DNA of 64,000 nt from an uncultured bacterium (GCA_964348275.1 CAYGBT010000010.1:21424-85423); one strand, 5' to 3'; shown: positions 52,914 through 63,965, counted from the stretch's first letter. The notes: generated by a model not told the origin, from the letters alone. Numbers and translations: made by a program.

Positions 52914-52989
52914 GGGGCTGTGGCGCAGTTGGGAGCGCGCTTGACTGGCAGTCAAGAGGTCGGGGGTTCGAATCCCCTCAGCTCCACCA
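52914..52989 (+). tRNA. tRNA-Ala (anticodon GGC)
   Basis: Folded by hand: acceptor GGGGCTG/CAGCTCC with G3:U70; D arm GCGC-AGTTGGGA-GCGC; anticodon arm CTTGA-CTGGCAG-TCAAG; T arm with GGTTCGAATCC; encoded CCA. Confidence 0.9.
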
Positions 52990-53003
52990 GAAATTTCGAG
53001 GGC

Positions 53004-54188
53004 TTACGGCGTCGTGCCGTGAGCCCTTTTTGTTTCGGTTGCGTATAGGTTGCGTTTGGTTGCAGTCAAAATCGGGTCCAACCGGTCCACCGCCGCCTTG
53101 TTCGCGCCAGGGATCAGGTGGCCGTAGGTATCGACCGTGACCTTGATCGAGTGATGCCCCATCTGCTCCTTGACGTACACCAGAGATTCGCCCCGTCCCA
53201 GCAAGATGCTGGCGTAGGAATGGCGGAGGTCGTGGAGGCGGATCCTCCGAAGGCCTGCCCGGGCCAAGCAGCGGTGGAACACGCGCCGCCGAAGATTGCT
53301 CTCGTCCAATGGCCCGCCAACCTCATTCGTGAAAACCCATGCCTCCGGTGAAAGCTCCTGCCCAGTCAACGCCGCCTCGGCCTCCCTAAGCGTTCGGAGC
53401 TGTTTTAGCGTGTCTGCAAGATGGAGGGACATGTCCACGCGGCGGATCTTTCCGTTCTTCGGCGGCTCGATCCGGCCGCGCGTATAGCTCTGCCGTACTT
53501 CGATGAAGCGCCCCTGAAAGTCGAGATCCCCCCACTGCAGCCCGAAGGCCTCTCCGATGCGGAGGCCAGTCCGAACGAGACAGAGGAACAGCGCGTAATA
53601 ATGGGGAGCGTAATCCTGCACGGCTTGCAGGAATCGGCCCGCCTCCTCCTCCGTCAGAGGATTGCTCTTCAGGCGGGAGTCGGCCTTCGCCTTCAAGTAC
53701 TTCCCTAGACGGGCAGCTGGATTGGTGAGCTGTAAGTCGTCCTCGATTGCGTGGTTATAGATTTCCCGGATCACGGCCACCACCTGCCGGACGGTGCTAC
53801 GACTCAACGGCTTGCCCCGAAGACCCCGCTTGAGCATTTCCGCGATGAGGCACTTGAGGTCCCCTCGGCTAACGTCTGAGAGGGCTTTGACTCCGAAGCG
53901 AGGGAAAGCATACTGCCGCAGAAGCGTACCGTACGTGGTGTAGGTGCTCACACGGCATTGGCCTTTGGCGTAAGTCTCAAGCCACCGGTCGGCATGGTCC
54001 TGGAATGTGGGTCGCCGCTCCGAGGCTTCGTCTAAAATGGCCAGCTTCCCTAGCGCCAGCCGCGCCTCCAGCTTCCTCGCCACCTCCAGGGCAGCCTTGC
54101 GATCGCCGATCTTTTTCGCCTTCCGCTTGCCTTGGTGGTTGATAAACACCCACCAGCTGCCGTCTTTCTCTCTGACCCGCACGCCCAT
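53004..54188 (-). CDS. Tyrosine-type site-specific integrase
   Basis: 394 aa; SAM-like N-domain; catalytic region ...RTGLRIGEA...HDLRHSYASILL...GHHSIKVTVDTYGHL... Confidence 0.9.
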   Translation of the reverse strand: MGVRVREKDGSWWVFINHQGKRKAKKIGDRKAALEVARKLEARLALGKLAILDEASERRPTFQDHADRWLETYAKGQCRVSTYTTYGTLLRQYAFPRFGVKALSDVSRGDLKCLIAEMLKRGLRGKPLSRSTVRQVVAVIREIYNHAIEDDLQLTNPAARLGKYLKAKADSRLKSNPLTEEEAGRFLQAVQDYAPHYYALFLCLVRTGLRIGEAFGLQWGDLDFQGRFIEVRQSYTRGRIEPPKNGKIRRVDMSLHLADTLKQLRTLREAEAALTGQELSPEAWVFTNEVGGPLDESNLRRRVFHRCLARAGLRRIRLHDLRHSYASILLGRGESLVYVKEQMGHHSIKVTVDTYGHLIPGANKAAVDRLDPILTATKRNLYATETKRAHGTTP

Positions 54189-54275
54189 TGCATCACCTCC
54201 CCGGGCGTACAGGACGCGGCGGCGTCACTGTACCACAAACAAGATCTGAGGCAAACGAGGCTAGGCTTACAGTCA

Positions 54276-54602
54276 TCACGCCAACCTCCCCTCGTCTTGG
54301 CCGCCATGTAAAGCCGGCGTGGTGGAGGGAGCACCCGCGCACGGGTCCCGTCGGCGACGCCAGGCCCTGGTACGGCAAGCGGGTGTTGCGTATTTTCGGG
54401 CCTCGCCGCGACCTGGGGAATCCAGGGGCCTCCCACATCCGCACTGGCATGGCAACAAAGGCGTCACGTGACGGCTTTCCTGGGCCGTGGAGGGACGATC
54501 CTGGGCAATCGTGCACTCCCTCCCAGCATTGGCATCTACAACCCCTTCTTGGGTCTCCTCCGGCTGCTCGGGTGAGTTTGTACTGCGTTCGATCGAACTC
54601 AT
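54276..54602 (-). CDS. Small zinc-ribbon/Arg-rich protein (paralog of 59611-59802)
   Basis: ...CQCGCGRPLDSPGRGEARKYATPACRTRAWRRRRD... aligns with CLNCKQPFEAQREDATYCGGRCRAEASRRRRD. Its start overlaps the xis stop by 4 nt. Confidence 0.45.
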   Translation of the reverse strand: MSSIERSTNSPEQPEETQEGVVDANAGRECTIAQDRPSTAQESRHVTPLLPCQCGCGRPLDSPGRGEARKYATPACRTRAWRRRRDPCAGAPSTTPALHGGQDEGRLA

Positions 54603-54880
54603 TGTGCTACCTCCTTTATGATGTGAGAGACCAACCGATTCAAATCAGCACCATCGCGTCGGAATTGAGCCATCCAGCCGTCGAACTCGGACCGGCGGAC
54701 CAAGACCTTGCCCTCCAGGCGGTAGTGGGGAAGCGGGTGCGCTGGGTCGGCCAAGGCCTTTCGCAATGTCCTGACGGACAGCCCCGAGTAGTCGGAGAGC
54801 GCCTTCAGCGAGAGGTACGGATCTAGGTCCGTCTGAATTGCGATGCTGTCAACAACACTCATTCCCTGAGTTACATGCAT
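54599..54880 (-). CDS. Excisionase-family HTH DNA-binding protein
   Basis: ...YLSLKALSDYSGLSVRTLRKALADPAHPLPHYRLEGKVLVRRSEFDGWM... is typical of AlpA/Xis (HTH_17-like) proteins; located upstream of int. Confidence 0.7.
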   Translation of the reverse strand: MHVTQGMSVVDSIAIQTDLDPYLSLKALSDYSGLSVRTLRKALADPAHPLPHYRLEGKVLVRRSEFDGWMAQFRRDGADLNRLVSHIIKEVAQ

Positions 54881-55567: not shown

Positions 55568-55883
55568 GTTTGCTCCTTTCTTTTAGCGCGTGTTCTTCTG
55601 TCCCGACCGTTGTCTTTCTTTCACTAGGCCCAAGGTTGGGTGCTGTCCGAAAACCTCCCTGTGAAGGACGCATTACGCGTTCAATAGTTTCGTGGCGTTT
55701 CTTCTGCCTTTTCTCCGTCTCAAAAGGAACCTCTTTTGGACCAAGGGGCCGAGAAATGCACCTTTCCAAGTCGTCGATCTGCTGTGACTTTGATGGAAGC
55801 ATTTTGACAAGATGTCGCATGGGTACTCCTTTTGCCTGCCGAGTTAACTTGTGTGCATATCTGCCAGGTAGCGTCTGGCACAT
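55539..55883 (-). CDS. Hypothetical basic protein
   Basis: 114-aa ORF between the helicase gene and 54965-55567. The start is uncertain (internal MRHLVKM). Confidence 0.35.
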   Translation of the reverse strand: MCQTLPGRYAHKLTRQAKGVPMRHLVKMLPSKSQQIDDLERCISRPLGPKEVPFETEKRQKKRHETIERVMRPSQGGFRTAPNLGPSERKTTVGTEEHALKERSKHAKPDRSRI

Positions 55884-55902
55884 CGTGTGCCGCTGGTTCT
55901 GT

Positions 55903-57060
55903 TTACCCTCGCTTTTCTGTAAAGCGGCGCTTCGGCCGGTCGAAAATAACTTCTACGTTGCCTGTCGGCCCGTACCGGTTCTTGTCCACTCGGAGCACTA
56001 ACCGCACTTGAGCCTTCGTAAGCTCCTCTTTTTCGCCAAACAGGAAGTTTACTGTGTCCGCCTGTTGCTCTATCTCGCCCGATTCCCTGATGTCTGCCAG
56101 CGTTGGTTGTTCGGACCGGCGCCCCTCCACGTTCCGGTTCAACTGACAGACCAAAAGGCAGGCCGTTCCGGTCTGTTGCAGTAAACTCCGAAGACTCTGG
56201 AGGATCTCCCGGATCTCCTCCACACGGGTCTGATCCTTGCGGCGGGGCATCCTGATGAAGCCCAGGTGATCGATAAAGAGTGCCTTAATACCGCCAGCTT
56301 GGATCGCCCATCTCAGGTCGAGGGCCAGCGTGGGCCAGCAGCACGGTGAATCCTGCAGGACGTAGACTTCCTCGTCAGATAAACAGCCTTGCGCCGCCGC
56401 CAGCTCCGCCGTCTCCGAGGCCCCGATCTCAAGCGGGACGACGAGGGTTGGCATACCCGCCTTTGCCATATTGGTCGCCCACTGAACCATCAGCGTGGTT
56501 TTTCCCCGGCTGGGTCTTCCGGCGAGCACGTTGATCCTTCCAGGGGCCAATCCCTTGGTCAGCATCTCCCACATGGGAAAGCCCACGGGACGAAACTCGA
56601 TGGTACTTCTCTCCTCGTGAACCGCTCGTAGGCGAACCATCCGGCTCAGCTCTGCACCTTCACCTATGGCCTGGTCCCATATCCGCTGCGCCTCAAGCCT
56701 CTTTACACCGTACGGACGCTGGTCTTTCAGGAGCAAGTCGGCAATCTGCTTGGAAGCCCGGATCAAGCGCTGCTCACTCGCACACTCTTTCAGGCGGCGG
56801 ACCCAATACTCCTGATCCGTCCCGACCGTCTCCTCGATGACGTAATCAATCACCCGATCCTTCAGTTCTGGCTTCACGTCTTGAAGGATTTCGACACTGA
56901 CCTCCCGGCCCTCCATCGCCGCCTCACGGATTGACAGAAACACTGGCTTGAGGTCATCAGGGAAATCCTCGGGGTCGCACTGCCTGATCATGGGCAGGAC
57001 CGCCTGGGAATCAAATAAAGCCTTGGAGAGCACTTTGCGAGCGATGTCCTGCTGTCTCAT
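55903..57060 (-). CDS. DnaB-like replicative helicase (C-terminal RecA-like domain)
   Basis: Walker A ...LAGRPSRGKTTLMVQ...; Walker B-like ...ALFIDHLGFI...; ...LLVCQLNR...IRESGEIEQQADTV... Confidence 0.8.
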   Translation of the reverse strand: MRQQDIARKVLSKALFDSQAVLPMIRQCDPEDFPDDLKPVFLSIREAAMEGREVSVEILQDVKPELKDRVIDYVIEETVGTDQEYWVRRLKECASEQRLIRASKQIADLLLKDQRPYGVKRLEAQRIWDQAIGEGAELSRMVRLRAVHEERSTIEFRPVGFPMWEMLTKGLAPGRINVLAGRPSRGKTTLMVQWATNMAKAGMPTLVVPLEIGASETAELAAAQGCLSDEEVYVLQDSPCCWPTLALDLRWAIQAGGIKALFIDHLGFIRMPRRKDQTRVEEIREILQSLRSLLQQTGTACLLVCQLNRNVEGRRSEQPTLADIRESGEIEQQADTVNFLFGEKEELTKAQVRLVLRVDKNRYGPTGNVEVIFDRPKRRFTEKRG

Positions 57061-57070
57061 AGGGCTTTCC

Positions 57071-57850
57071 TCAATAGTCGGGGCCTATCCGCATTTCCCC
57101 CCGCATTTCCGTCTTCTTCGCCTCATTCAAATATGCCTCGAAGTTCTCACTACTAAAGAGCGTCTTCGGCCTGAGGAATCGGGACATCTTGGCATCGTTC
57201 AGCCACTCGTCTGCCTTGCAGGCGATCACGGCCTTGAAGTCCTCCACTGTAAAGCCCTCACTGAAGCGGGCACGGATGTGCTGACGGGTTTTCTGCGTTG
57301 AAGTCCTGAATGCCGTGTCAGCCTTCTGGTTCAAGTACGAGACGATTTCCCTGATGGCACCGAGATCGTTAGAACTCGACAATATCTCTTTCTTACATTC
57401 TTCCATTCTCACGTTATGGCCCTTACTTGGCCCTCGCTTGGCCCCTACTTGGCCCTCCTCTTGGCCCTCAGTCTGCTCTGATGATTGATAAGCGTTGAAA
57501 TTCAGTACTGTTATCTCCGTATATCTCTTGGCCCTCCTCTTGGCCCGAATTGAACCGATTCGTTCGAGGTTGACCAAAGCGCCCCTGACGACCTTTCTGG
57601 AGACCTTAGCCATCTCTGCGAGCTTCGGCTCGCTAGTCACGAAGCTGCCCCGAGCAATTTCCACCTTACCGGTCCCGTCGAACCATTTCCGGCTGATGTT
57701 GTTCGCCATCAGGAGGCACGTGGCCCAGACTTTAAACTGTCCAGGAGACAGACCCCAGACCGTGCTCTCCATCGTCTTGCGGTGAAATTTGATCCAGCCA
57801 GCAATAGTCATCAGAGATTCATGACCTTGGTCTAAGGCGCCGTTTGGCAT
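57071..57850 (-). CDS. Phage-type replisome organizer / replication initiator-like protein
   Basis: The C-terminal region ...TQKTRQHIRARFSEGFTVEDFKAVIACKADEWLNDAKMSRFLRPKTLFS..ENFEAYLNE... matches the conserved phage C-terminus (Phg_2220_C-like). It lies directly upstream of the helicase gene. Confidence 0.7.
   Translation of the reverse strand: MPNGALDQGHESLMTIAGWIKFHRKTMESTVWGLSPGQFKVWATCLLMANNISRKWFDGTGKVEIARGSFVTSEPKLAEMAKVSRKVVRGALVNLERIGSIRAKRRAKRYTEITVLNFNAYQSSEQTEGQEEGQVGAKRGPSKGHNVRMEECKKEILSSSNDLGAIREIVSYLNQKADTAFRTSTQKTRQHIRARFSEGFTVEDFKAVIACKADEWLNDAKMSRFLRPKTLFSSENFEAYLNEAKKTEMRGEMRIGPDY
57426..57546. repeat. Iteron-like array: CTTGGCCC x4 (starts 57426, 57437, 57448, 57460), a 59-nt AT-rich spacer, then CTTGGCCC x2 (57527, 57539)
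   Basis: Read directly; 11-12-nt phasing. It is embedded in the replisome-organizer coding sequence. Confidence 0.7.
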
Positions 57851-58095
57851 TAACCAATGTCATCTCCGTTTTTTAACCCTAATGTCGCTAGAAACGCTTG
57901 AATGCGTTCCTGCTCTTCCAATGTGGCGACGTGGATCTCGATATGGGAGGGCACAAATTTGCCATTGATAACTTCCCCCACGCATGTGAAGGAAGCCGGC
58001 GAAGAATGTGTCCGCTCCAAATGAACAGCCATGTCCTCAAGTTGTTGTCGCTCCATATCCCCCTGCCTCCCACTTAAATGAGATCGGCACATCAT
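57850..58095 (-). CDS. Hypothetical small protein
   Basis: 81-aa ORF whose stop abuts the start of 57071-57850; co-oriented. Confidence 0.4.
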   Translation of the reverse strand: MMCRSHLSGRQGDMERQQLEDMAVHLERTHSSPASFTCVGEVINGKFVPSHIEIHVATLEEQERIQAFLATLGLKNGDDIG

Positions 58096-58128
58096 GTGCC
58101 AAACCGGTCTCGCCTGTGGAAGTGAAGG

Positions 58129-58332
58129 TCATAGCTCACTTCTCATCTCCCGGCGGACCGCCTGGTCTAATTTTCGAATCGCTGGAACTAGCCGTTCATA
58201 CAGCGCCGTAGCGGCCATTTGCGCTTCAAGTTTCTCGGCGGCAACTTGGACCTTCAACACCCCGTTCGGACCAACGATGATCCGCATCTCAAACTCGCTA
58301 CGCATGCCCACCTCCTCCTCTCCTGGATACAC
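58129..58332 (-). CDS. Hypothetical small protein
   Basis: 67-aa ORF, co-oriented; no domain recognised. Confidence 0.35.
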   Translation of the reverse strand: MYPGEEEVGMRSEFEMRIIVGPNGVLKVQVAAEKLEAQMAATALYERLVPAIRKLDQAVRREMRSEL

Positions 58333-58444
58333 CTAGGTATCCGGCATGAGGGGCGGAAAAGCGGAACTGGATCGGAAAAAATCGTGAATGCTGGAATGCG
58401 TAGGGGGGCTAGAAAGATGGTGCAAAGAAAAAGCGGAGACCAGC

Positions 58445-59638
58445 CTACTTGTGGCGTTTCCTGGGATTCAAGTCGAAGCCAAAAATTTCAATGAGTTCGT
58501 CCGGTCGTGACTCTATCTTTTTGAGATATTTTCGCACTTGCCGGTCGGTCAGGCCAACCTGCCGGGCGATCTCAGCCTGGCTCGGTGGCCTTATGACCTG
58601 ACCGCTCTCCGTCCCTTCCGTTCCCCAAACCTCGGGGTTCAATATGATTTCTAGGATATCGGGGGCCTTTGGGCCGAAAGCCTTCTCCAATTGTTGGGCC
58701 TGATGGCGGGTTGGCAGACGCTCCTCCGACTTAATATACTCGAAAGGGAAGACAGGCGGTCTCTTTCGGATGGTTACGACTTGTTCTGGCGGCTCCTCGG
58801 GGGCCGATCGATATTTTGGACGATTTTTTTTGCGGGGAGACGGGGGCATGATGATTGTTTCGTTCTCCCTGTCCTTGGTAATCCATCTTGGACCCCGCTG
58901 GAGGCTGGCTTTCCGATCTTTCAGCCGCTTGGGGAGGTATTCCAGCTCCGCATCCAACACGTTGGCCATAAAGTCGTCGTGTGGAAGGCATCGGATCTTC
59001 TCCAATTCTTCATAGAAGACCAAAGCCCGCTGTGCTACATATTCCCGTTTTTTTTCCGGATCGTGTAGAAAAGGAATTACGTTAAATGGCTTCAGGAGTT
59101 CCCTTTCTGGCTCCAGACCCCTGAATTTAACAAGCAGTAAGATATTGAGAGTAAGGGGAAGCCGTGTAGAGCGCCTGGCGATCTCTTCTCCGATCCAATA
59201 AAAAACCGCAATGTCGATGCAGGCATCAATCCAGCAGTCCAATGCTTCCCGGACAGTGGAGCACTGTATGAGAAGCAGGAACAGGAAGAATAGCCTATCA
59301 TCGGCCTCCGAAGTGGTTCGGTACCTTTCCGGGATGCTGGTATGAATTAAGTACAGCCATTTCCAGCCCGGTGACCGGAGTTCAAGTATATCCTTACCGG
59401 AAAAAACAGAAAGATCGAGATCGAGGTCGACTATGCGCCTGGAGATCGATTCCCACACCCGTCGACAGCGAGAGATGTAGGCCCGACCTTCCTCAGTCTG
59501 AGACAGGGAGATAATAGTAGACATGATCTGTTCCGTTGATGCATGCGGAATCGCTTGGTGTGCAGACATGTGCTCCCCCCTCGACGCCTCCCTAGCGGCA
59601 AGAAAGTCCATCATCTTCCATCTGCTTCCTCGCCCCAC
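58445..59638 (-). CDS. Hypothetical protein with a C-terminal HTH (sigma-70 region-4-like)
   Basis: 397 aa; ...SQAEIARQVGLTDRQVRKYLKKI... near the C-terminus; the remainder is unrecognised. Confidence 0.55.
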   Translation of the reverse strand: MGRGSRWKMMDFLAAREASRGEHMSAHQAIPHASTEQIMSTIISLSQTEEGRAYISRCRRVWESISRRIVDLDLDLSVFSGKDILELRSPGWKWLYLIHTSIPERYRTTSEADDRLFFLFLLLIQCSTVREALDCWIDACIDIAVFYWIGEEIARRSTRLPLTLNILLLVKFRGLEPERELLKPFNVIPFLHDPEKKREYVAQRALVFYEELEKIRCLPHDDFMANVLDAELEYLPKRLKDRKASLQRGPRWITKDRENETIIMPPSPRKKNRPKYRSAPEEPPEQVVTIRKRPPVFPFEYIKSEERLPTRHQAQQLEKAFGPKAPDILEIILNPEVWGTEGTESGQVIRPPSQAEIARQVGLTDRQVRKYLKKIESRPDELIEIFGFDLNPRKRHK

Positions 59639-59802
59639 ATGACCCGCCGGATCTTCCCCAAGGCTCTCTCCGCCTCGTCCAGCGCAGCCGCCAGTTCCCG
59701 GTCCCGGCGCCTTCGGGATGCCTCGGCCCTACATCGCCCGCCGCAGTATGTCGCATCCTCTCTCTGCGCCTCGAAGGGCTGTTTGCAGTTCAGACAAATC
59801 AT
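59611..59802 (-). CDS. Small zinc-ribbon/Arg-rich protein
   Basis: MICLNCKQPFEAQREDATYCGGRCRAEASRRRRDRE...; first gene of the leftward operon; paralog of 54276-54602. Confidence 0.5.
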   Translation of the reverse strand: MICLNCKQPFEAQREDATYCGGRCRAEASRRRRDRELAAALDEAERALGKIRRVMWGEEADGR

Positions 59803-60743: not shown

Positions 60744-61238
60744 TTTCACGCGTGCAACCCCTAGCACGCCCGCGTCCCCTCCAACTCCCGCCGCACCGCC
60801 TTGATCTCCTCTCTACCTATATATCGCAGGGTGTTTCACCGCCAGGGACATAAGTTAGATATAGATAGGTAATATATGACGTGGGGGTCAGAGCTAGATG
60901 CGTGCGTGACGGGCCGGTGGGCGTGTGATGGTGGATGGGCCAACCGTATCACCTCGATCAGCCTGGAACTATGTGGGATGGTACGGGCACCGTCTTATAA
61001 CAGTCTTGAAAGCCAGAGACGAACCGGCACCACCCTATAAATGTTTGTCGCCTCGTAGTGACTGGGTTCATCGCGCCGCCCCTGAGAGCACTGGGCAGGC
61101 GCGAGTGATCGTGAACCCGCCTGCTTGCAAGGCCCTCCTACGGTGCGCTCCAGATGACCTTGTCAACCTTGTAGAGCATGCCCATCGCTCAGCCCTCCCC
61201 TATCAGTACGACATGCCGCGATAACCTACCTGCCCCAG

Positions 61239-61682
61239 TTATGGATTGCTAGGGCCACTACTGGGGAAATGTCTTGCTGTCCAGGGATTCACCTGGCGCC
61301 ATCGACTAACGATTTCTCCCCGCTTGGCCATCTCAACGATAGGAGACATGATAAAATCAAAGTCATCAGACATATAGGGGAGGATTAGATCTGGCCTTTC
61401 CTTGGAGAGAATGTAGAGGCCAAGGGCGATTGGTGGCTGAGGAGCTTTACTCGTCATAGACGCTAGCGAGAAAGGCGCTGTCTCAGAATAGTACCAGACT
61501 TCAGGCTGACCGCCCCATGTCCCACGGGACTGAAGCGTCATAGCTAACCAAGCGTTGGGGTCGCGCTCAGCATGTTCTAACATAAATTTCGCAAAGCACT
61601 TAACCTGAGTCTCAACAACGCTCTCAGCAAGAGCTTGCGGGTTCCCAAAAACCCCCCTAAGCATTTTCCAGAATCCCATCAC
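61239..61682 (-). CDS. Hypothetical protein
   Basis: 147 aa; 4-nt overlap with the upstream ORF; no domain recognised. Confidence 0.5.
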   Translation of the reverse strand: MMGFWKMLRGVFGNPQALAESVVETQVKCFAKFMLEHAERDPNAWLAMTLQSRGTWGGQPEVWYYSETAPFSLASMTSKAPQPPIALGLYILSKERPDLILPYMSDDFDFIMSPIVEMAKRGEIVSRWRQVNPWTARHFPSSGPSNP

Positions 61683-61942
61683 TCACCCTTTTTTTCGCCG
61701 CCACTTAATTGCTTGTCATGCTCCAAACGCTTCTTCTCCCATTTGCGAAGAGTTTCGCCTTTCTTCTGCTGTTTTTCCTTGATCCTTCTAACGGCCCGCC
61801 GATGGTCCCGTGCGTATGTCACCCCTGACCCCTCCTTCCTCCTGTGTTCGCGTTCGATCTCGGTGCATCTATTTACGGTGCGCTCCAGAGGACCTTGCCG
61901 GCCTTTACCGGCGCAGGACATTGCCGGCTGTTGGTCAGCCAT
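61679..61942 (-). CDS. Hypothetical highly basic small protein
   Basis: 87 aa, Lys/Arg/Glu-rich. It contains one copy of a 24-nt direct repeat (61874-61897). Confidence 0.4.
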   Translation of the reverse strand: MADQQPAMSCAGKGRQGPLERTVNRCTEIEREHRRKEGSGVTYARDHRRAVRRIKEKQQKKGETLRKWEKKRLEHDKQLSGGEKKGE

Positions 61943-61962
61943 TCCCCGCTCCGGTAAGAAAA

Positions 61963-62967
61963 TTACTGCCTCACCATCAGGGGTGTGAACCCTTCCTTCT
62001 TCAGAGCCTCAACGGCCTTCTGGGCCTCCGCTCGGTTCTCATACTCGCCAATCCGCACTTGGTGCACTGGGGTGGGGGCAGTCTCGGAGTCGATCTTGGA
62101 CGTGTAATTCTTCTTTCGTAGACTGCGGGCCAAATCGATGGCCTCGTTCAGATGAAACGATGACCCGACCTCCAGACGGAATTTCCCTCCCTCGATTTCG
62201 ACTAGGTTGGATGGAAACCCATCAACGTTCAGACTCCGCGCCGTCTTTTCTGCTTCCTCACGGCTGCTAAATTCCCCGGCATAGACTCGATGGCGAGTAA
62301 TGGGGACCGTGGTCATGCGGATGACCGGATTATATCCGAGTCCTTCTAGCTGCTTCTTGAGGGTGAGGGCATTCCGCTCGACGCCCAGACTGGCGACTTG
62401 GAGGGTATATCGCTTCTCCCTCTTGATCTCGGGCTCGGTCACCTTCGCCATCGGTTTTGGGACCGGTTTCTCCGCGACAGCCGGGGCTCGTGGTGGCTTG
62501 GGGCTTGCCTGCGGAACCTCGGGGGGCCCGACTACTACTGGAGGAGCCTCTTCCTTAGGACGACCTGTCACCGTGGGAGGTGCGGGGGTTGGAGGCCACT
62601 CTCCCGTTAGGTTTTTGCAGTGTACGTAGCCTAATCTCCCCCCGGACGCGACCTCTTTGATCTTGCACCAGAGCACCTGTCCTGCTTCGACAACAACTCT
62701 GATCTCCACGAGGTCCCCCCGCGCGAGCGTGAACACCATGTTGCTGGTTGTGTCCATCCGAGGGAACACGGGCACCGAGTCGCTCTCTACAACCACCTGG
62801 TTAAGCGGGGCTTTCTCCTCAGCCGCCTTACCGGGCACAGCTAGCCCCAATAGCACCACAGCGGCAATCGCGGCAAAGGCGATGACTCCCGCCCTCTTCA
62901 ACCGCCGATTCTCTCGCTCCACCCGCTCCAGCCGTTGTATTAGGGTTTCCATCGTTGGCTGATTCAT
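61963..62967 (-). CDS. Membrane-anchored SH3b-like + Pro-rich linker + double SPOR-domain peptidoglycan-binding protein
   Basis: N-terminal coiled coil and TM (...VIAFAAIAAVVLLGLAV...); SH3-like ...ARGDLVEIRVVVEAGQVLWCKIK...; two SPOR-like units (...YTLQVASLGVERNALTLKKQLEGLGYNP..., ...HQVRIGEYENRAEAQKAVEALKKEGFTP...). Confidence 0.7.
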   Translation of the reverse strand: MNQPTMETLIQRLERVERENRRLKRAGVIAFAAIAAVVLLGLAVPGKAAEEKAPLNQVVVESDSVPVFPRMDTTSNMVFTLARGDLVEIRVVVEAGQVLWCKIKEVASGGRLGYVHCKNLTGEWPPTPAPPTVTGRPKEEAPPVVVGPPEVPQASPKPPRAPAVAEKPVPKPMAKVTEPEIKREKRYTLQVASLGVERNALTLKKQLEGLGYNPVIRMTTVPITRHRVYAGEFSSREEAEKTARSLNVDGFPSNLVEIEGGKFRLEVGSSFHLNEAIDLARSLRKKNYTSKIDSETAPTPVHQVRIGEYENRAEAQKAVEALKKEGFTPLMVRQ

Positions 62968-63965
62968 CGCTTACTTCCCTTTCCCGCTCCACCTGCATTC
63001 GTGAGGAACTGCGCGTATCTCATCTTGTAAAGATCCTCTGCCTCCTCCCAATATTTGATCAGGACGCCCCAGACAAAAGCCAATCGCTCACCCAGGCCGA
63101 ATCGCAGGAGGTGCTCCATCTCGGAGGCCAATGCGAGGAGAACCGTGATCGTCGTACCCATGGCCTGAGATTTCCGTTTGATCAATTGTGCCTCTCGCTC
63201 CTCGCCGGGCTTACGCAATAACGCTGATCCTCGATGGACGAGGCCGGGGAAACTCAGATGAGCTTCTTGTGAAAGCGTCCTGTAGAACCACGCTTCAAGA
63301 TATTCGAGAAAGGCTGGATCTTTTGCTTGGCCCTTCATCTGGCTGGGAATCGGCCAATACTTGATCTTTGTCAAATCTGCGGTCTCTTGCTCGGATAATC
63401 CCCAATCCACCCGAGTCATTTCCAAAAACTTACCGTAAGTTTCTAGCCAATCCGCCCATGCTGGGGTCTCTCCATACTTGGACTTGTATCTGTCATACGT
63501 TTCCTTACTTTCGCGCCAACCACTCTTGTAAAACCATTGCGTCCTTACAGATAGGTCCTCGGAAAGGAATATCACCGAAAAAAGCTGGTCCAGCAGGGAT
63601 CGTGTGAGAGGGGGAATTGATAAGGCAAACTCCAACGGCGGCGCACTTTCTTTCGGAAAACCTCCCGCAAGGAATAGGATGCTCTGGTACGTGTTGACCG
63701 CGACCTTGACCATGGTCAGGAAGAGCACTTGTGCTCCAGGAATGTCTACAAGTTCCTTGGGCCACTCGCGATCAATGAGGTTCTTTAGGGCTTCCAGCCC
63801 TTCGTCCAACGGGTCCCTTAAGATTTTGAAATCCAACACCCTATCAGGCGGAACATCGTCTTTGTTCACCGTAATGCGCTCCCTTACCCATCTCCCTACC
63901 GCCCCTGTTTCCCGTCCGACTCCCGCCTCTTTTCTCACTTTGCCTTGCTTGCCATCTCTCGGCAA
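62964..63965 (-). CDS. Hypothetical helical protein
   Basis: 333 aa; 4-nt overlap with the SPOR gene; Trp/Tyr-rich (...WFYKSGWRESKETYDRYKSKYGETPAWADWLETYGKF...); no domain recognised. Confidence 0.55.
   Translation of the reverse strand: MPRDGKQGKVRKEAGVGRETGAVGRWVRERITVNKDDVPPDRVLDFKILRDPLDEGLEALKNLIDREWPKELVDIPGAQVLFLTMVKVAVNTYQSILFLAGGFPKESAPPLEFALSIPPLTRSLLDQLFSVIFLSEDLSVRTQWFYKSGWRESKETYDRYKSKYGETPAWADWLETYGKFLEMTRVDWGLSEQETADLTKIKYWPIPSQMKGQAKDPAFLEYLEAWFYRTLSQEAHLSFPGLVHRGSALLRKPGEEREAQLIKRKSQAMGTTITVLLALASEMEHLLRFGLGERLAFVWGVLIKYWEEAEDLYKMRYAQFLTNAGGAGKGSKR

What the first reader, a model, noticed from the sequence alone, without database searches (positions are those of the whole stretch)
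57426..57546. Candidate replication origin embedded in the replisome-organizer gene
Seen: CTTGGCCC occurs four times at 11/11/12-nt phasing (57426-57467). A 59-nt AT-rich stretch follows (TCAGTCTGCTCTGATGATTGATAAGCGTTGAAATTCAGTACTGTTATCTCCGTATAT). Two more copies follow at 12-nt phasing (57527-57546). A 20-mer, CTTGGCCCTCCTCTTGGCCC, is repeated exactly (57448 and 57527). All of this lies inside the coding sequence of 57071-57850, in a low-complexity linker (...QTEGQEEGQVGAKRGPSKG...). Established: the phage lambda origin consists of phased iterons plus an AT-rich region located inside the O (initiator) gene. Many phage and plasmid initiators bind iterons with helical phasing. Inference: this is the origin of the element and is bound by its own organizer protein.
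Basis: partly seen in the sequence, partly recalled or inferred. Interest (0 to 1): 0.55.

Follow-up and report, generated by a model that had tools for sequence, protein, structure and literature searches.

The report
Replication origin inside its initiator gene
A row of short DNA repeats spaced one helical turn apart inside a phage-type replication-initiator gene is very probably the element's replication origin, built like the proven origin of Bacillus phage SPP1, so it is a new example of a known design.

Summary
Six exact CTTGGCCC copies (four at 11/11/12 nt, two at 12 nt), plus a degenerate fifth array copy, flank a 59-nt A+T-rich spacer inside gene 57071-57850(-). This is the only phased run of four or more copies in the 64-kb window.

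The gene is an end-to-end homologue of SPP1 G38P, the replisome organizer whose proven origin oriL lies inside its own gene. SPP1 gene 38 has the same layout at the same place.

Selection acts on the DNA, not the peptide:
- The 8-mer is read in all three frames.
- A close relative keeps the repeats but reads two of them in another frame, after an 11-nt unit deletion and a 1-nt deletion.
- Third codon positions are more conserved here than in the N-terminal domain.
- A 46%-identical relative has the same geometry with a different iteron (GAACACAG).
- 76 of 86 related loci carry a phased run at this spot, about 150 times the flanking density.

One correction: across the family the most A+T-rich segment lies just after the array (here about 57355-57414), so that segment, not only the spacer, is a candidate unwinding element.

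Binding and origin firing are inferred, not shown. This is a new member of a known kind. This scan has recorded the same design on other DNA (27 notes).

The parts
57071..57850 (-). Replisome-organizer (initiator) gene, 259-aa ORF. The real start is probably M14 (ATG at 57809-57811), where the relatives begin.
   Evidence: PF09524 Phg_2220_C, E 8.2e-29, residues 169-242. phrog_428 'replication initiation protein', E 7.5e-39, and DnaD-like loader PHROGs. Aligns with SPP1 G38P over 240 aa, 26% identity, E 8e-20.
57485..57781 (-). Codes for the N-terminal winged-helix domain (residues 24-122): recognition helix 85-98, wing strands 101-106 and 110-115, short helix 118-122.
   Evidence: AlphaFold2 model, mean pLDDT 81.2, blocks covering residues 31-120 at 87-98. 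Weak GntR match below cut-off. The best Foldseek rows are winged-helix DNA-binding domains, none at E <= 0.001.
57527..57546 (+). Upstream iteron pair (upstream in gene orientation): 2 x CTTGGCCC, 12 nt apart, read as RAKRRAKR in the wing of the winged-helix domain.
   Evidence: The pair is conserved in L007 and partly in L008/L009. Equivalent pairs 66-68 or 78-79 nt before the array occur in many relatives.
57468..57526 (+). 59-nt A+T-rich spacer. It encodes the second wing strand and the conserved NF.AYQ helix. Second-least stable DNA of the gene.
   Evidence: GC 0.367. AT 0.63 against 0.42 in the N-terminal coding part. A 19-nt stretch is invariant among four relatives. The first-to-first iteron distance of 67/79 nt keeps the two blocks roughly in helical phase.
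57415..57467 (+). Iteron array: 4 exact CTTGGCCC plus 1 degenerate copy (TATGGCCC), steps 11/11/11/12 nt, read in all three frames (EGQ, EGQ, GAK, GPS, KGH).
   Evidence: It lies in the predicted disordered linker 126-158.
57355..57414 (+). A+T-rich segment just after the array in gene orientation: candidate DNA-unwinding element by analogy with SPP1 and the family.
   Evidence: Least stable 30-mers of the gene start at 57369-57383. GC 0.417. The 60 nt after the array are more AT-rich than the N-terminal coding part in 73 of 75 arrays; SPP1 0.73 AT.
57125..57346 (-). Codes for the C-terminal Phg_2220_C (DnaD-like) domain, presumed to recruit the helicase.
   Evidence: This domain is replaced by an unrelated one in the closest relatives, which sit next to a different helicase type.
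55903..57060 (-). DnaB-like replicative helicase gene, starting 10 nt after the organizer's stop codon.
   Evidence: PF03796 DnaB_C, E 2.3e-40. phrog_19 DnaB-like replicative helicase, E 3.5e-49.
52914..54880 (.). Integration module of the island: tRNA-Ala(GGC) 52914-52989 (+), tyrosine integrase 53004-54188 (-), HTH_17 excisionase-like gene 54599-54880 (-).
   Evidence: A 46-nt exact copy of the tRNA 3' half lies on G000:C67:985-1030. In the same-genus genome G027 the tRNA is followed directly by sequence matching the C67 flank.

Best explanation
This is most likely an SPP1-oriL-type replication origin written inside the gene of its own initiator. It belongs to a mobile island integrated at tRNA-Ala of an NC10/Methylomirabilales bacterium.

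Shown here:
- Seven GGGCCA-core repeats (gene orientation) form two blocks: a pair 12 nt apart and an array at 11-12-nt steps.
- Both blocks lie on roughly the same face of the helix.
- A+T-rich DNA lies between the blocks and after the array.
- The gene encodes a winged-helix N-domain, a disordered linker and a DnaD-like C-domain, and is followed by a DnaB-like helicase gene.

Inferred mechanism, by homology with SPP1 G38P:
1. Several copies of the organizer bind the iterons through the winged-helix domain and form a nucleoprotein complex.
2. The complex distorts and melts the adjacent A+T-rich DNA. The segment after the array (about 57355-57414) is the likelier site; the spacer is possible.
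3. The C-terminal domain brings in the element's DnaB-like helicase, which recruits the host replisome for theta replication after excision.

The N-domain plus iterons form the specificity module. The C-domain is an exchangeable helicase-recruitment module.
For: 1. Homology. tblastn hits SPP1 gene 38 over 90% of the query (25.6% identity, E 1e-10). BLASTP gives 26% over 240 aa, E 8e-20. PF09524 is present, the family to which PMC5737612 assigns G38P.
2. Same layout in the proven case. SPP1 gene 38 has AAAGACA-type repeats at residues 98 and 102 (12 nt apart), then four at 11-nt steps at residues 121-132, then a 73% AT tract. The papers state that oriL lies within gene 38, that G38P binds its repeats, and that a 356-bp oriL fragment suffices in vitro.
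3. DNA-level selection.
- The 8-mer is read in all three frames.
- L007 lacks one 11-nt unit and one further base, so two iterons are read as RAK and GAK instead of EGQ and EGQ while the DNA is kept.
- Third-position identity is 82/74/80% in the origin against 57/44/65% in the N-domain, for three pairs. Fisher p = 0.006, 0.0016, 0.11.
4. Co-variation. L087/L002 (46-47% identical N-domain) have the same geometry with GAACACAG: a pair 12 nt apart, then about 67 nt to an array at 12/12/11/11/11.
5. Family-wide pattern.
- 76 of 86 related loci have a strict run of 3 or more copies in the 255-nt linker window, and 59 of 86 have 4 or more.
- There are 77 runs in 21.9 kb inside against 10 in 429.9 kb outside (3.51 against 0.023 per kb).
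- 78 arrays show 50 different majority 8-mers.
6. Modularity. The closest relatives share the N-domain and iterons, but have a different C-domain and a Toprim primase-helicase neighbour.
Against: - No experiment: binding, melting and firing are all inferred.
- No G39P-like helicase loader was found among the 9 neighbouring ORFs scanned with Pfam, so the helicase-loading step may differ from SPP1.
- The Foldseek search gave no match at E <= 0.001; the winged-helix assignment rests on the model and on weak rows.
- The 86 loci are not independent: many are near-identical, and they were collected through the N-domain itself. The family count therefore overstates the number of independent observations.
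- 10 of 86 loci lack a strict run.
- The right end of the island is on another contig and no phage structural genes were seen, so whether this copy still replicates is unknown.
- The iterons could also, or instead, serve autoregulation or copy control.
Confidence: 0.85

Rival explanations
1. The repeats are binding sites of the organizer or of another regulator, but they serve autorepression, copy control (handcuffing) or partition rather than initiation. The true origin lies elsewhere in the island.
For: Iterons of plasmids often have both roles (established knowledge, recalled). SPP1 has a second G38P-bound site, oriR, outside gene 38 (PMC6316719). L087 and L082 carry a second phased cluster outside the gene.
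Against: The layout matches the SPP1 site that is sufficient for replication in vitro. No second cluster of this 8-mer exists in the window: single copies only, at 53261 and 63326. An AT-rich tract directly after the array is near-universal, 73 of 75 arrays, which fits an unwinding element better than an operator.
Confidence: 0.07
2. The repeats reflect selection on a repetitive low-complexity peptide linker, or are a chance or slippage by-product, with no function as DNA.
For: The array encodes a disordered, hydrophilic linker. Such linkers are often repetitive.
Against: An 11-nt period cannot encode a peptide repeat, and the same 8-mer is read in three frames. L007 keeps the DNA but changes the peptide. 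Synonymous positions are more conserved than in the folded domain. The upstream pair lies in a structured wing, not in the linker. The geometry is kept with 50 different majority 8-mers.
Confidence: 0.02
3. It is a genuine origin by descent, but the island copy in this genome is a defunct remnant that no longer excises or replicates.
For: No attR within the contig and no structural or packaging genes in the 16 kb seen. The island looks composite.
Against: The organizer, helicase and integrase ORFs are intact. All six iterons are exact. A perfect 46-nt attR-like tRNA copy exists on C67.
Confidence: 0.2

Closest known systems
oriL of Bacillus phage SPP1 inside gene 38 (replisome organizer G38P, PF09524)
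   Same: The initiator is homologous end to end. Repeats sit at the same place in the gene: a pair 12 nt apart, then a gap of about 57-69 nt, then an array at 11-nt steps, then AT-rich DNA. A DnaB-type helicase gene lies downstream. For SPP1, origin function and G38P binding are experimentally shown (PMC5737612 and PMC6316719, passages).
   Different: Only about 26% identity. The iteron differs (GGGCCAAG against AAAGACA/AAACGACA). No G39P-like loader gene lies between organizer and helicase. The host is a GC-rich NC10 bacterium, and the element is an integrated island rather than a lytic phage. No second (oriR-like) cluster was seen.
ori-lambda inside gene O of lambdoid phages
   Same: Works alike: phased initiator-binding repeats plus an AT-rich region inside the initiator gene, at the junction between a DNA-binding N-domain and a helicase-recruiting C-domain, with specificity co-varying between relatives (lambda facts recalled, not read here).
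   Different: Not the same protein family: no Phage_rep_O (PF04492) match at E <= 0.01. The repeats here are 8-mers at 11-12-nt steps, with no larger dyad-symmetric unit noted.
Iteron-controlled plasmid and phage initiators with winged-helix domains (Rep_3-type RepA/pi; DnaD-like RepA of staphylococcal plasmids)
   Same: Winged-helix reader and directly repeated, helically phased sites next to AT-rich DNA. Foldseek listed 'Structure of initiator' 4pt7_B and 4pql_B among the weak rows. That these are plasmid RepA N-domains is recalled, not checked.
   Different: No Rep_3 match. The matches are weak (E 0.06-0.07). Plasmid iterons are usually intergenic, about 17-22 bp long and spaced about 22 bp apart (recalled).

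Membership tests
SPP1 G38P / oriL-type intragenic origin (PF09524 replisome organizers) | Initiator homologous to G38P, with the C-terminal PF09524 domain | tested here: met
   PF09524, E 8.2e-29. tblastn to SPP1 gene 38 covers 90% of the query, E 1e-10. BLASTP over 240 aa, E 8e-20.
SPP1 G38P / oriL-type intragenic origin (PF09524 replisome organizers) | Direct repeats inside the initiator's own coding sequence, at the N-domain/linker boundary | tested here: met
   Same position and geometry in SPP1 gene 38 and in 76 of 86 related loci.
SPP1 G38P / oriL-type intragenic origin (PF09524 replisome organizers) | AT-rich DNA-unwinding element adjacent to the repeats | tested here: met
   By composition only. 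Spacer AT 0.63 and the 60 nt after the array AT 0.58, against 0.42 in the N-domain coding part. These hold the least stable 30-mers of the gene. Melting was not tested.
SPP1 G38P / oriL-type intragenic origin (PF09524 replisome organizers) | The initiator binds the repeats specifically | not testable with these tools
   Indirect only: the iteron changes together with the N-domain in L087/L002, and the closest relatives keep both the N-domain and the iteron.
SPP1 G38P / oriL-type intragenic origin (PF09524 replisome organizers) | Module of organizer + G39P-type loader + DnaB-type helicase | tested here: inconclusive
   The helicase is present. No loader family was found in the 9 ORFs scanned, and only 10 nt separate organizer and helicase. 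Two small ORFs and a 200-aa ORF have no family match.
SPP1 G38P / oriL-type intragenic origin (PF09524 replisome organizers) | The fragment supports initiator-dependent replication | not testable with these tools
   Contig-level depth from public runs cannot show it.
Lambda O / ori-lambda (Phage_rep_O, PF04492) | Initiator of the Phage_rep_O family | tested here: not met
   No PF04492 match at E <= 0.01. It works like lambda ori but is not a member.
Rep_3 iteron plasmid initiators (PF01051) | Initiator of the Rep_3 family with intergenic iterons of about 20 bp | tested here: not met
   No Rep_3 match. The repeats are 8-mers at 11-12-nt steps inside the gene.

The most novel reading that the evidence does not exclude
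Two readings are not excluded.

1. Reader and binding site are hard-wired together. The upstream iteron pair is written in the codons of the wing (RAKRRAKR) of the very winged-helix domain presumed to read the iterons. Any change of origin specificity therefore changes both reader and site through the same nucleotides. This could explain the 50 different majority 8-mers found on one fixed geometry.

2. Iteron slippage acts as a frame switch. Because the unit is 11 nt, gain or loss of one unit flips the reading frame. The truncated N-domain-only genes seen in two lineages (L008/L009 and L062) might then be iteron-binding inhibitors or an on/off switch of replication, rather than dead genes.
Probability: 0.15. 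Interest if true: 0.6.

Novelty: new member of a known kind. Interest (0 to 1): 0.3.

Why it matters
- It gives a concrete candidate minimal replicon (origin, organizer, helicase; about 2 kb) native to NC10/Methylomirabilales. I recall no genetic tools for this group, but I did not search for them.
- One origin geometry, worked out experimentally only for SPP1, extends across a very wide set of phage and island initiators with many different iteron sequences. Origins in this family can therefore be annotated from sequence alone.
- It shows how a coding sequence absorbs an 11-nt periodic DNA signal: the arrays are T-poor and often stop-free in all frames, and they encode a disordered linker.
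- It is not a new principle.

Tried and rejected
- Close relatives by single protein: genome contigs and viral contigs gave none. An alignment query was needed.
- attR inside the window or the rest of contig C10: no repeat of 12 nt or more of the tRNA 3' region. A candidate was found on contig C67 instead.
- Nature of the island: Pfam on 9 further ORFs found only GIY-YIG, SPOR, PilZ and a histidine phosphatase, and no phage structural genes. The right boundary stays unresolved.
- Public runs:
  - Two DNA runs of one study hold the stretch, as Logan contigs only. No RNA holder is listed.
  - Laying them showed no variant, indel or joint in 57.3-57.6 kb and no att junction. Contig depth (about 5 on the island, about 7.5 on the left flank in X1) cannot measure copy number. 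Nothing can be said on expression or amplification.
- Foldseek against the PDB: no match at E <= 0.001.
- Promoter and terminator scan of 55800-59800: 1 promoter-like and 2 terminator-like sites, no more than in shuffles and none in the origin.
- Literature:
  - Three of the searches run for a family-wide description of 11-nt phased iterons in PF09524 or replisome-organizer genes listed the SPP1 papers, a Francisella phage note (iterons near a Phg_2220_C gene; passages read) and lambda or plasmid work. None of the titles or abstract openings listed, nor the passages read, described such a family-wide pattern.
  - The other three searches run added the SPP1 genome paper and nothing else of that kind. 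One search returned no paper at all.
  - The primary SPP1 papers (Missich 1997, Pedre 1994) are not in the library, and the lactococcal phage work I recall was not found. 'Not described' cannot be claimed.
- The looser repeat count (4 or more copies within 220 nt in 84 of 86 loci) has no control, so I did not rely on it.
- Not run, because none bears on the claim: complex prediction, the search of protein representatives, the Atlas and the RNA tools.

Full report
**Observation**

On the + strand, CTTGGCCC stands at 57426, 57437, 57448 and 57460 (steps 11/11/12) and at 57527 and 57539 (step 12). The 20-mer CTTGGCCCTCCTCTTGGCCC is exact at 57448 and 57527. A degenerate fifth copy (TATGGCCC, 57415) extends the array, so the core TGGCCC occurs five times at 11/11/11/12.

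The window holds 14 copies of the 8-mer against 3.88 +/- 2.11 in 100 shuffles (none reach 14), and six of them lie within 121 nt. Under a strict definition (8-mer, at most 1 mismatch to the first copy, steps of 10-12 nt), this is the only run of four or more copies in the 64 kb. None of 20 shuffles gave even three copies. The 59-nt spacer 57468-57526 has GC 0.37 against 0.55-0.63 around it.

**The gene**

ORF 57071-57850(-) has a C-terminal Phg_2220_C domain (PF09524, E 8.2e-29, residues 169-242) and a sub-threshold GntR-like match at residues 73-106. PHROGs name it replication initiation protein or DnaD-like helicase loader.

An AlphaFold2 model (44-row alignment, mean pLDDT 81.2) shows three parts:
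- a winged-helix domain at residues 24-122, with recognition helix 85-98, wing strands 101-106 and 110-115, and helix 118-122;
- a disordered stretch at residues 126-158;
- a helical C-domain at residues 160-252.

Foldseek found no PDB match at E <= 0.001. Its best rows are winged-helix DNA-binding domains.

In gene orientation the upstream iteron pair encodes RAKRRAKR in the wing. The spacer encodes the second wing strand and the conserved NF.AYQ helix. The array encodes part of the disordered linker. Relatives start at the equivalent of M14, so the real start is probably 57811. A DnaB-like helicase gene (55903-57060) starts 10 nt after the organizer's stop codon.

**Selection acts on DNA, not on peptide**

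- With an 11-nt period, the 8-mer GGGCCAAG is read in all three frames: EGQ, EGQ, GAK, GPS and KGH in the array, and RAK, RAK in the pair.
- The closest relatives with DNA in hand (L007, L008, L009; 52-72% identical best segments) keep GGGCCAAG at the same positions.
- L007 lacks exactly one 11-nt unit plus one base upstream. Two iterons are therefore translated RAK and GAK instead of EGQ and EGQ, while the DNA is kept.
- L008 and L009, identical here but on two contigs, lack the unit without compensation, and the frame ends after 142 codons.
- DNA identity is 87/84/84% in the origin against 74/70/77% in the N-domain coding part.
- At third codon positions identity is 82/74/80% against 57/44/65%. 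Fisher p = 0.006, 0.0016, 0.11. The samples are small and only three pairs were compared.

**Co-variation and family-wide layout**

A 46-47%-identical relative from another Methylomirabilales genome (L087 = L002) has, at the same place, GAACACAG-type repeats. Two are 12 nt apart, followed about 67 nt later by an array at 12/12/11/11/11, again read in several frames.

I examined 86 related loci: 80 kept of 401 confirmed metagenome relatives and 6 genome loci.
- 76 have a strict phased run of 3 or more copies inside the 255-nt window equivalent to residues 90-175, and 59 have 4 or more copies.
- Runs number 77 in 21.9 kb inside against 10 in 429.9 kb outside (3.51 against 0.023 per kb).
- In 75 loci the longest run of the whole locus lies in that window.
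- Ten loci fail the strict test: L028, L040, L043, L049, L051, L053, L078, L084, L089 and L092. Some of them have copies that differ from one another by two letters, or that stand at double steps.
- The 78 arrays, including the query and SPP1, show 50 different majority 8-mers.
- Upstream copies typically lie 66-68 or 78-79 nt before the array; the query shows 67 and 79.

The loci are not independent and were collected through the N-domain, so these counts show a family trait, not 76 independent events.

**Link to an experimentally proven origin**

tblastn against 50,697 phage records gave 485 matching records, 14 of which cover 80% or more of the query. These include SPP1 gene 38 (25.6% identity, 90% coverage, E 1e-10). 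BLASTP aligns 240 aa (E 8e-20).

SPP1 gene 38 shows the same layout: AAAGACA-type repeats at residues 98 and 102, four at 11-nt steps at residues 121-132, then a 73% AT tract.

According to passages read in PMC5737612 and PMC6316719:
- oriL is embedded in gene 38;
- it consists of direct repeats bound by G38P plus an AT-rich unwinding element;
- a 356-bp oriL fragment is necessary and sufficient in vitro;
- G38P belongs to pfam09524.

The finding is thus a homologue of a characterised initiator-origin pair.

**Where the DNA melts**

In 75 arrays with enough flank, mean AT is as follows:

| Segment | Mean AT |
|---|---|
| N-domain coding part | 0.60 |
| Spacer | 0.65 |
| Array | 0.58 |
| 60 nt after the array | 0.70 |
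| C-domain coding part | 0.61 |

The post-array segment exceeds the N-domain part in 73 of 75 arrays, and the spacer does so in 56 of 75.

In the query the spacer (0.63) and the post-array segment (0.58) are both well above the N-domain part (0.42). The least stable 30-mers of the gene start at 57369-57383, then at 57495-57498. I therefore extend the candidate origin to about 57355-57546. The post-array segment is the more likely unwinding element, without excluding the spacer, whose fixed length is also explained by the folded peptide it encodes.

**Modularity**

The seven closest proteins (P0001-P0007) are 55-71% identical over 44-63% of the query, carry no PF09524 annotation, and have unrelated C-termini. 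DNA similarity to L007, L008 and L009 drops off shortly after the array. In L008 the downstream genes are Toprim and DnaB_C pieces of a primase-helicase, followed by an integrase. In the prophage-like L087 a full DnaB and a terminase are nearby. This fits an N-domain-plus-iterons specificity module joined to exchangeable helicase-recruitment domains.

**The element**

- tRNA-Ala(GGC) at 52914-52989 is followed by a tyrosine integrase and an HTH_17 excisionase-like gene.
- The organizer was found with this query in 6 of 251 genomes of the phylum, G000 included. It was found in 0 of 13 same-genus genomes. One of these, G034, is unpublished; without it the count is 0 of 12.
- No attR lies on the contig.
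- A 46-nt exact copy of the tRNA 3' half lies on G000:C67:985-1030.
- In the same-genus genome G027 the tRNA is followed directly by sequence matching C67:1031-1085.
- The island therefore spans at least 16 kb of C10 plus about 1 kb of C67 and may be composite. No phage structural genes were seen.

**Verdict**

It works like lambda ori but belongs to the SPP1 G38P/oriL family. Binding, melting and firing remain inferred. A G39P-type loader was not found.

It is a new member of a known kind. This scan has already recorded the same design on other DNA: 27 notes hold the search words, and I read eight of them after forming my reading.

Noticed in passing
L008:1706-2101 and L009:560-955; L062:4001-4450: Loss of iteron units that is not a multiple of three units breaks the organizer frame. 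L008 and L009 lack one 11-nt unit and end at about 142 codons, while the C-terminal part stays readable in another frame. L062 lacks 22 nt relative to L055 and ends at about 151 codons. L044 lacks 33 nt and stays in frame. Short proteins P0005 (152 aa) and P0006 (159 aa) look like the same thing.
   Followed up: partly
78 iteron arrays of the family (query, L007-L092, SPP1): On the coding strand the arrays hold 6.8% T, against 26% in the N-domain coding part. 40 of 78 are free of stop codons in all three frames, against 29 of 440 control 50-nt segments. This is as expected if an 11-nt period must be translated in every frame.
   Followed up: partly
window 57527-57546 (residues 102-110): The upstream iteron pair lies in the codons of the predicted wing of the winged-helix domain. 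The peptide of the presumed DNA reader and its binding site therefore share the same nucleotides.
   Followed up: no
window 52914-52989; G000:C67:985-1030; L102 (G036:C30:1878-7458): tRNA-Ala(GGC) is an integration hot spot. This genome has a 46-nt attR-like tRNA copy on another contig. The same-genus genome G036 carries a different insert of about 5.4 kb between the tRNA and a 47-nt tRNA copy.
   Followed up: partly
L087:5712-5755; L082:94-192: Second phased clusters outside the organizer gene: 4 x AAGGGGTA in L087 and 6 x GTCACTAA in L082. They could be second binding regions, as oriR is in SPP1, or belong to another protein.
   Followed up: no
window 57089-57110: CCGCATTTCC occurs twice, 12 nt apart, at the 3' end of the organizer gene (peptide GEMRGEMR), about 30 nt before the helicase start (family D8).
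   Followed up: no
window 60751-63892: Contigs of runs X1 and X2 join 60751 to 63892 with 30 other letters between. A related strain in the same samples therefore lacks this 3.1-kb stretch, which includes the SPOR-domain gene.
   Followed up: no
window 57809-57850: The listed ORF starts 13 codons upstream of where all close relatives and SPP1 G38P begin. M14 (57811) is the likelier start.
   Followed up: partly
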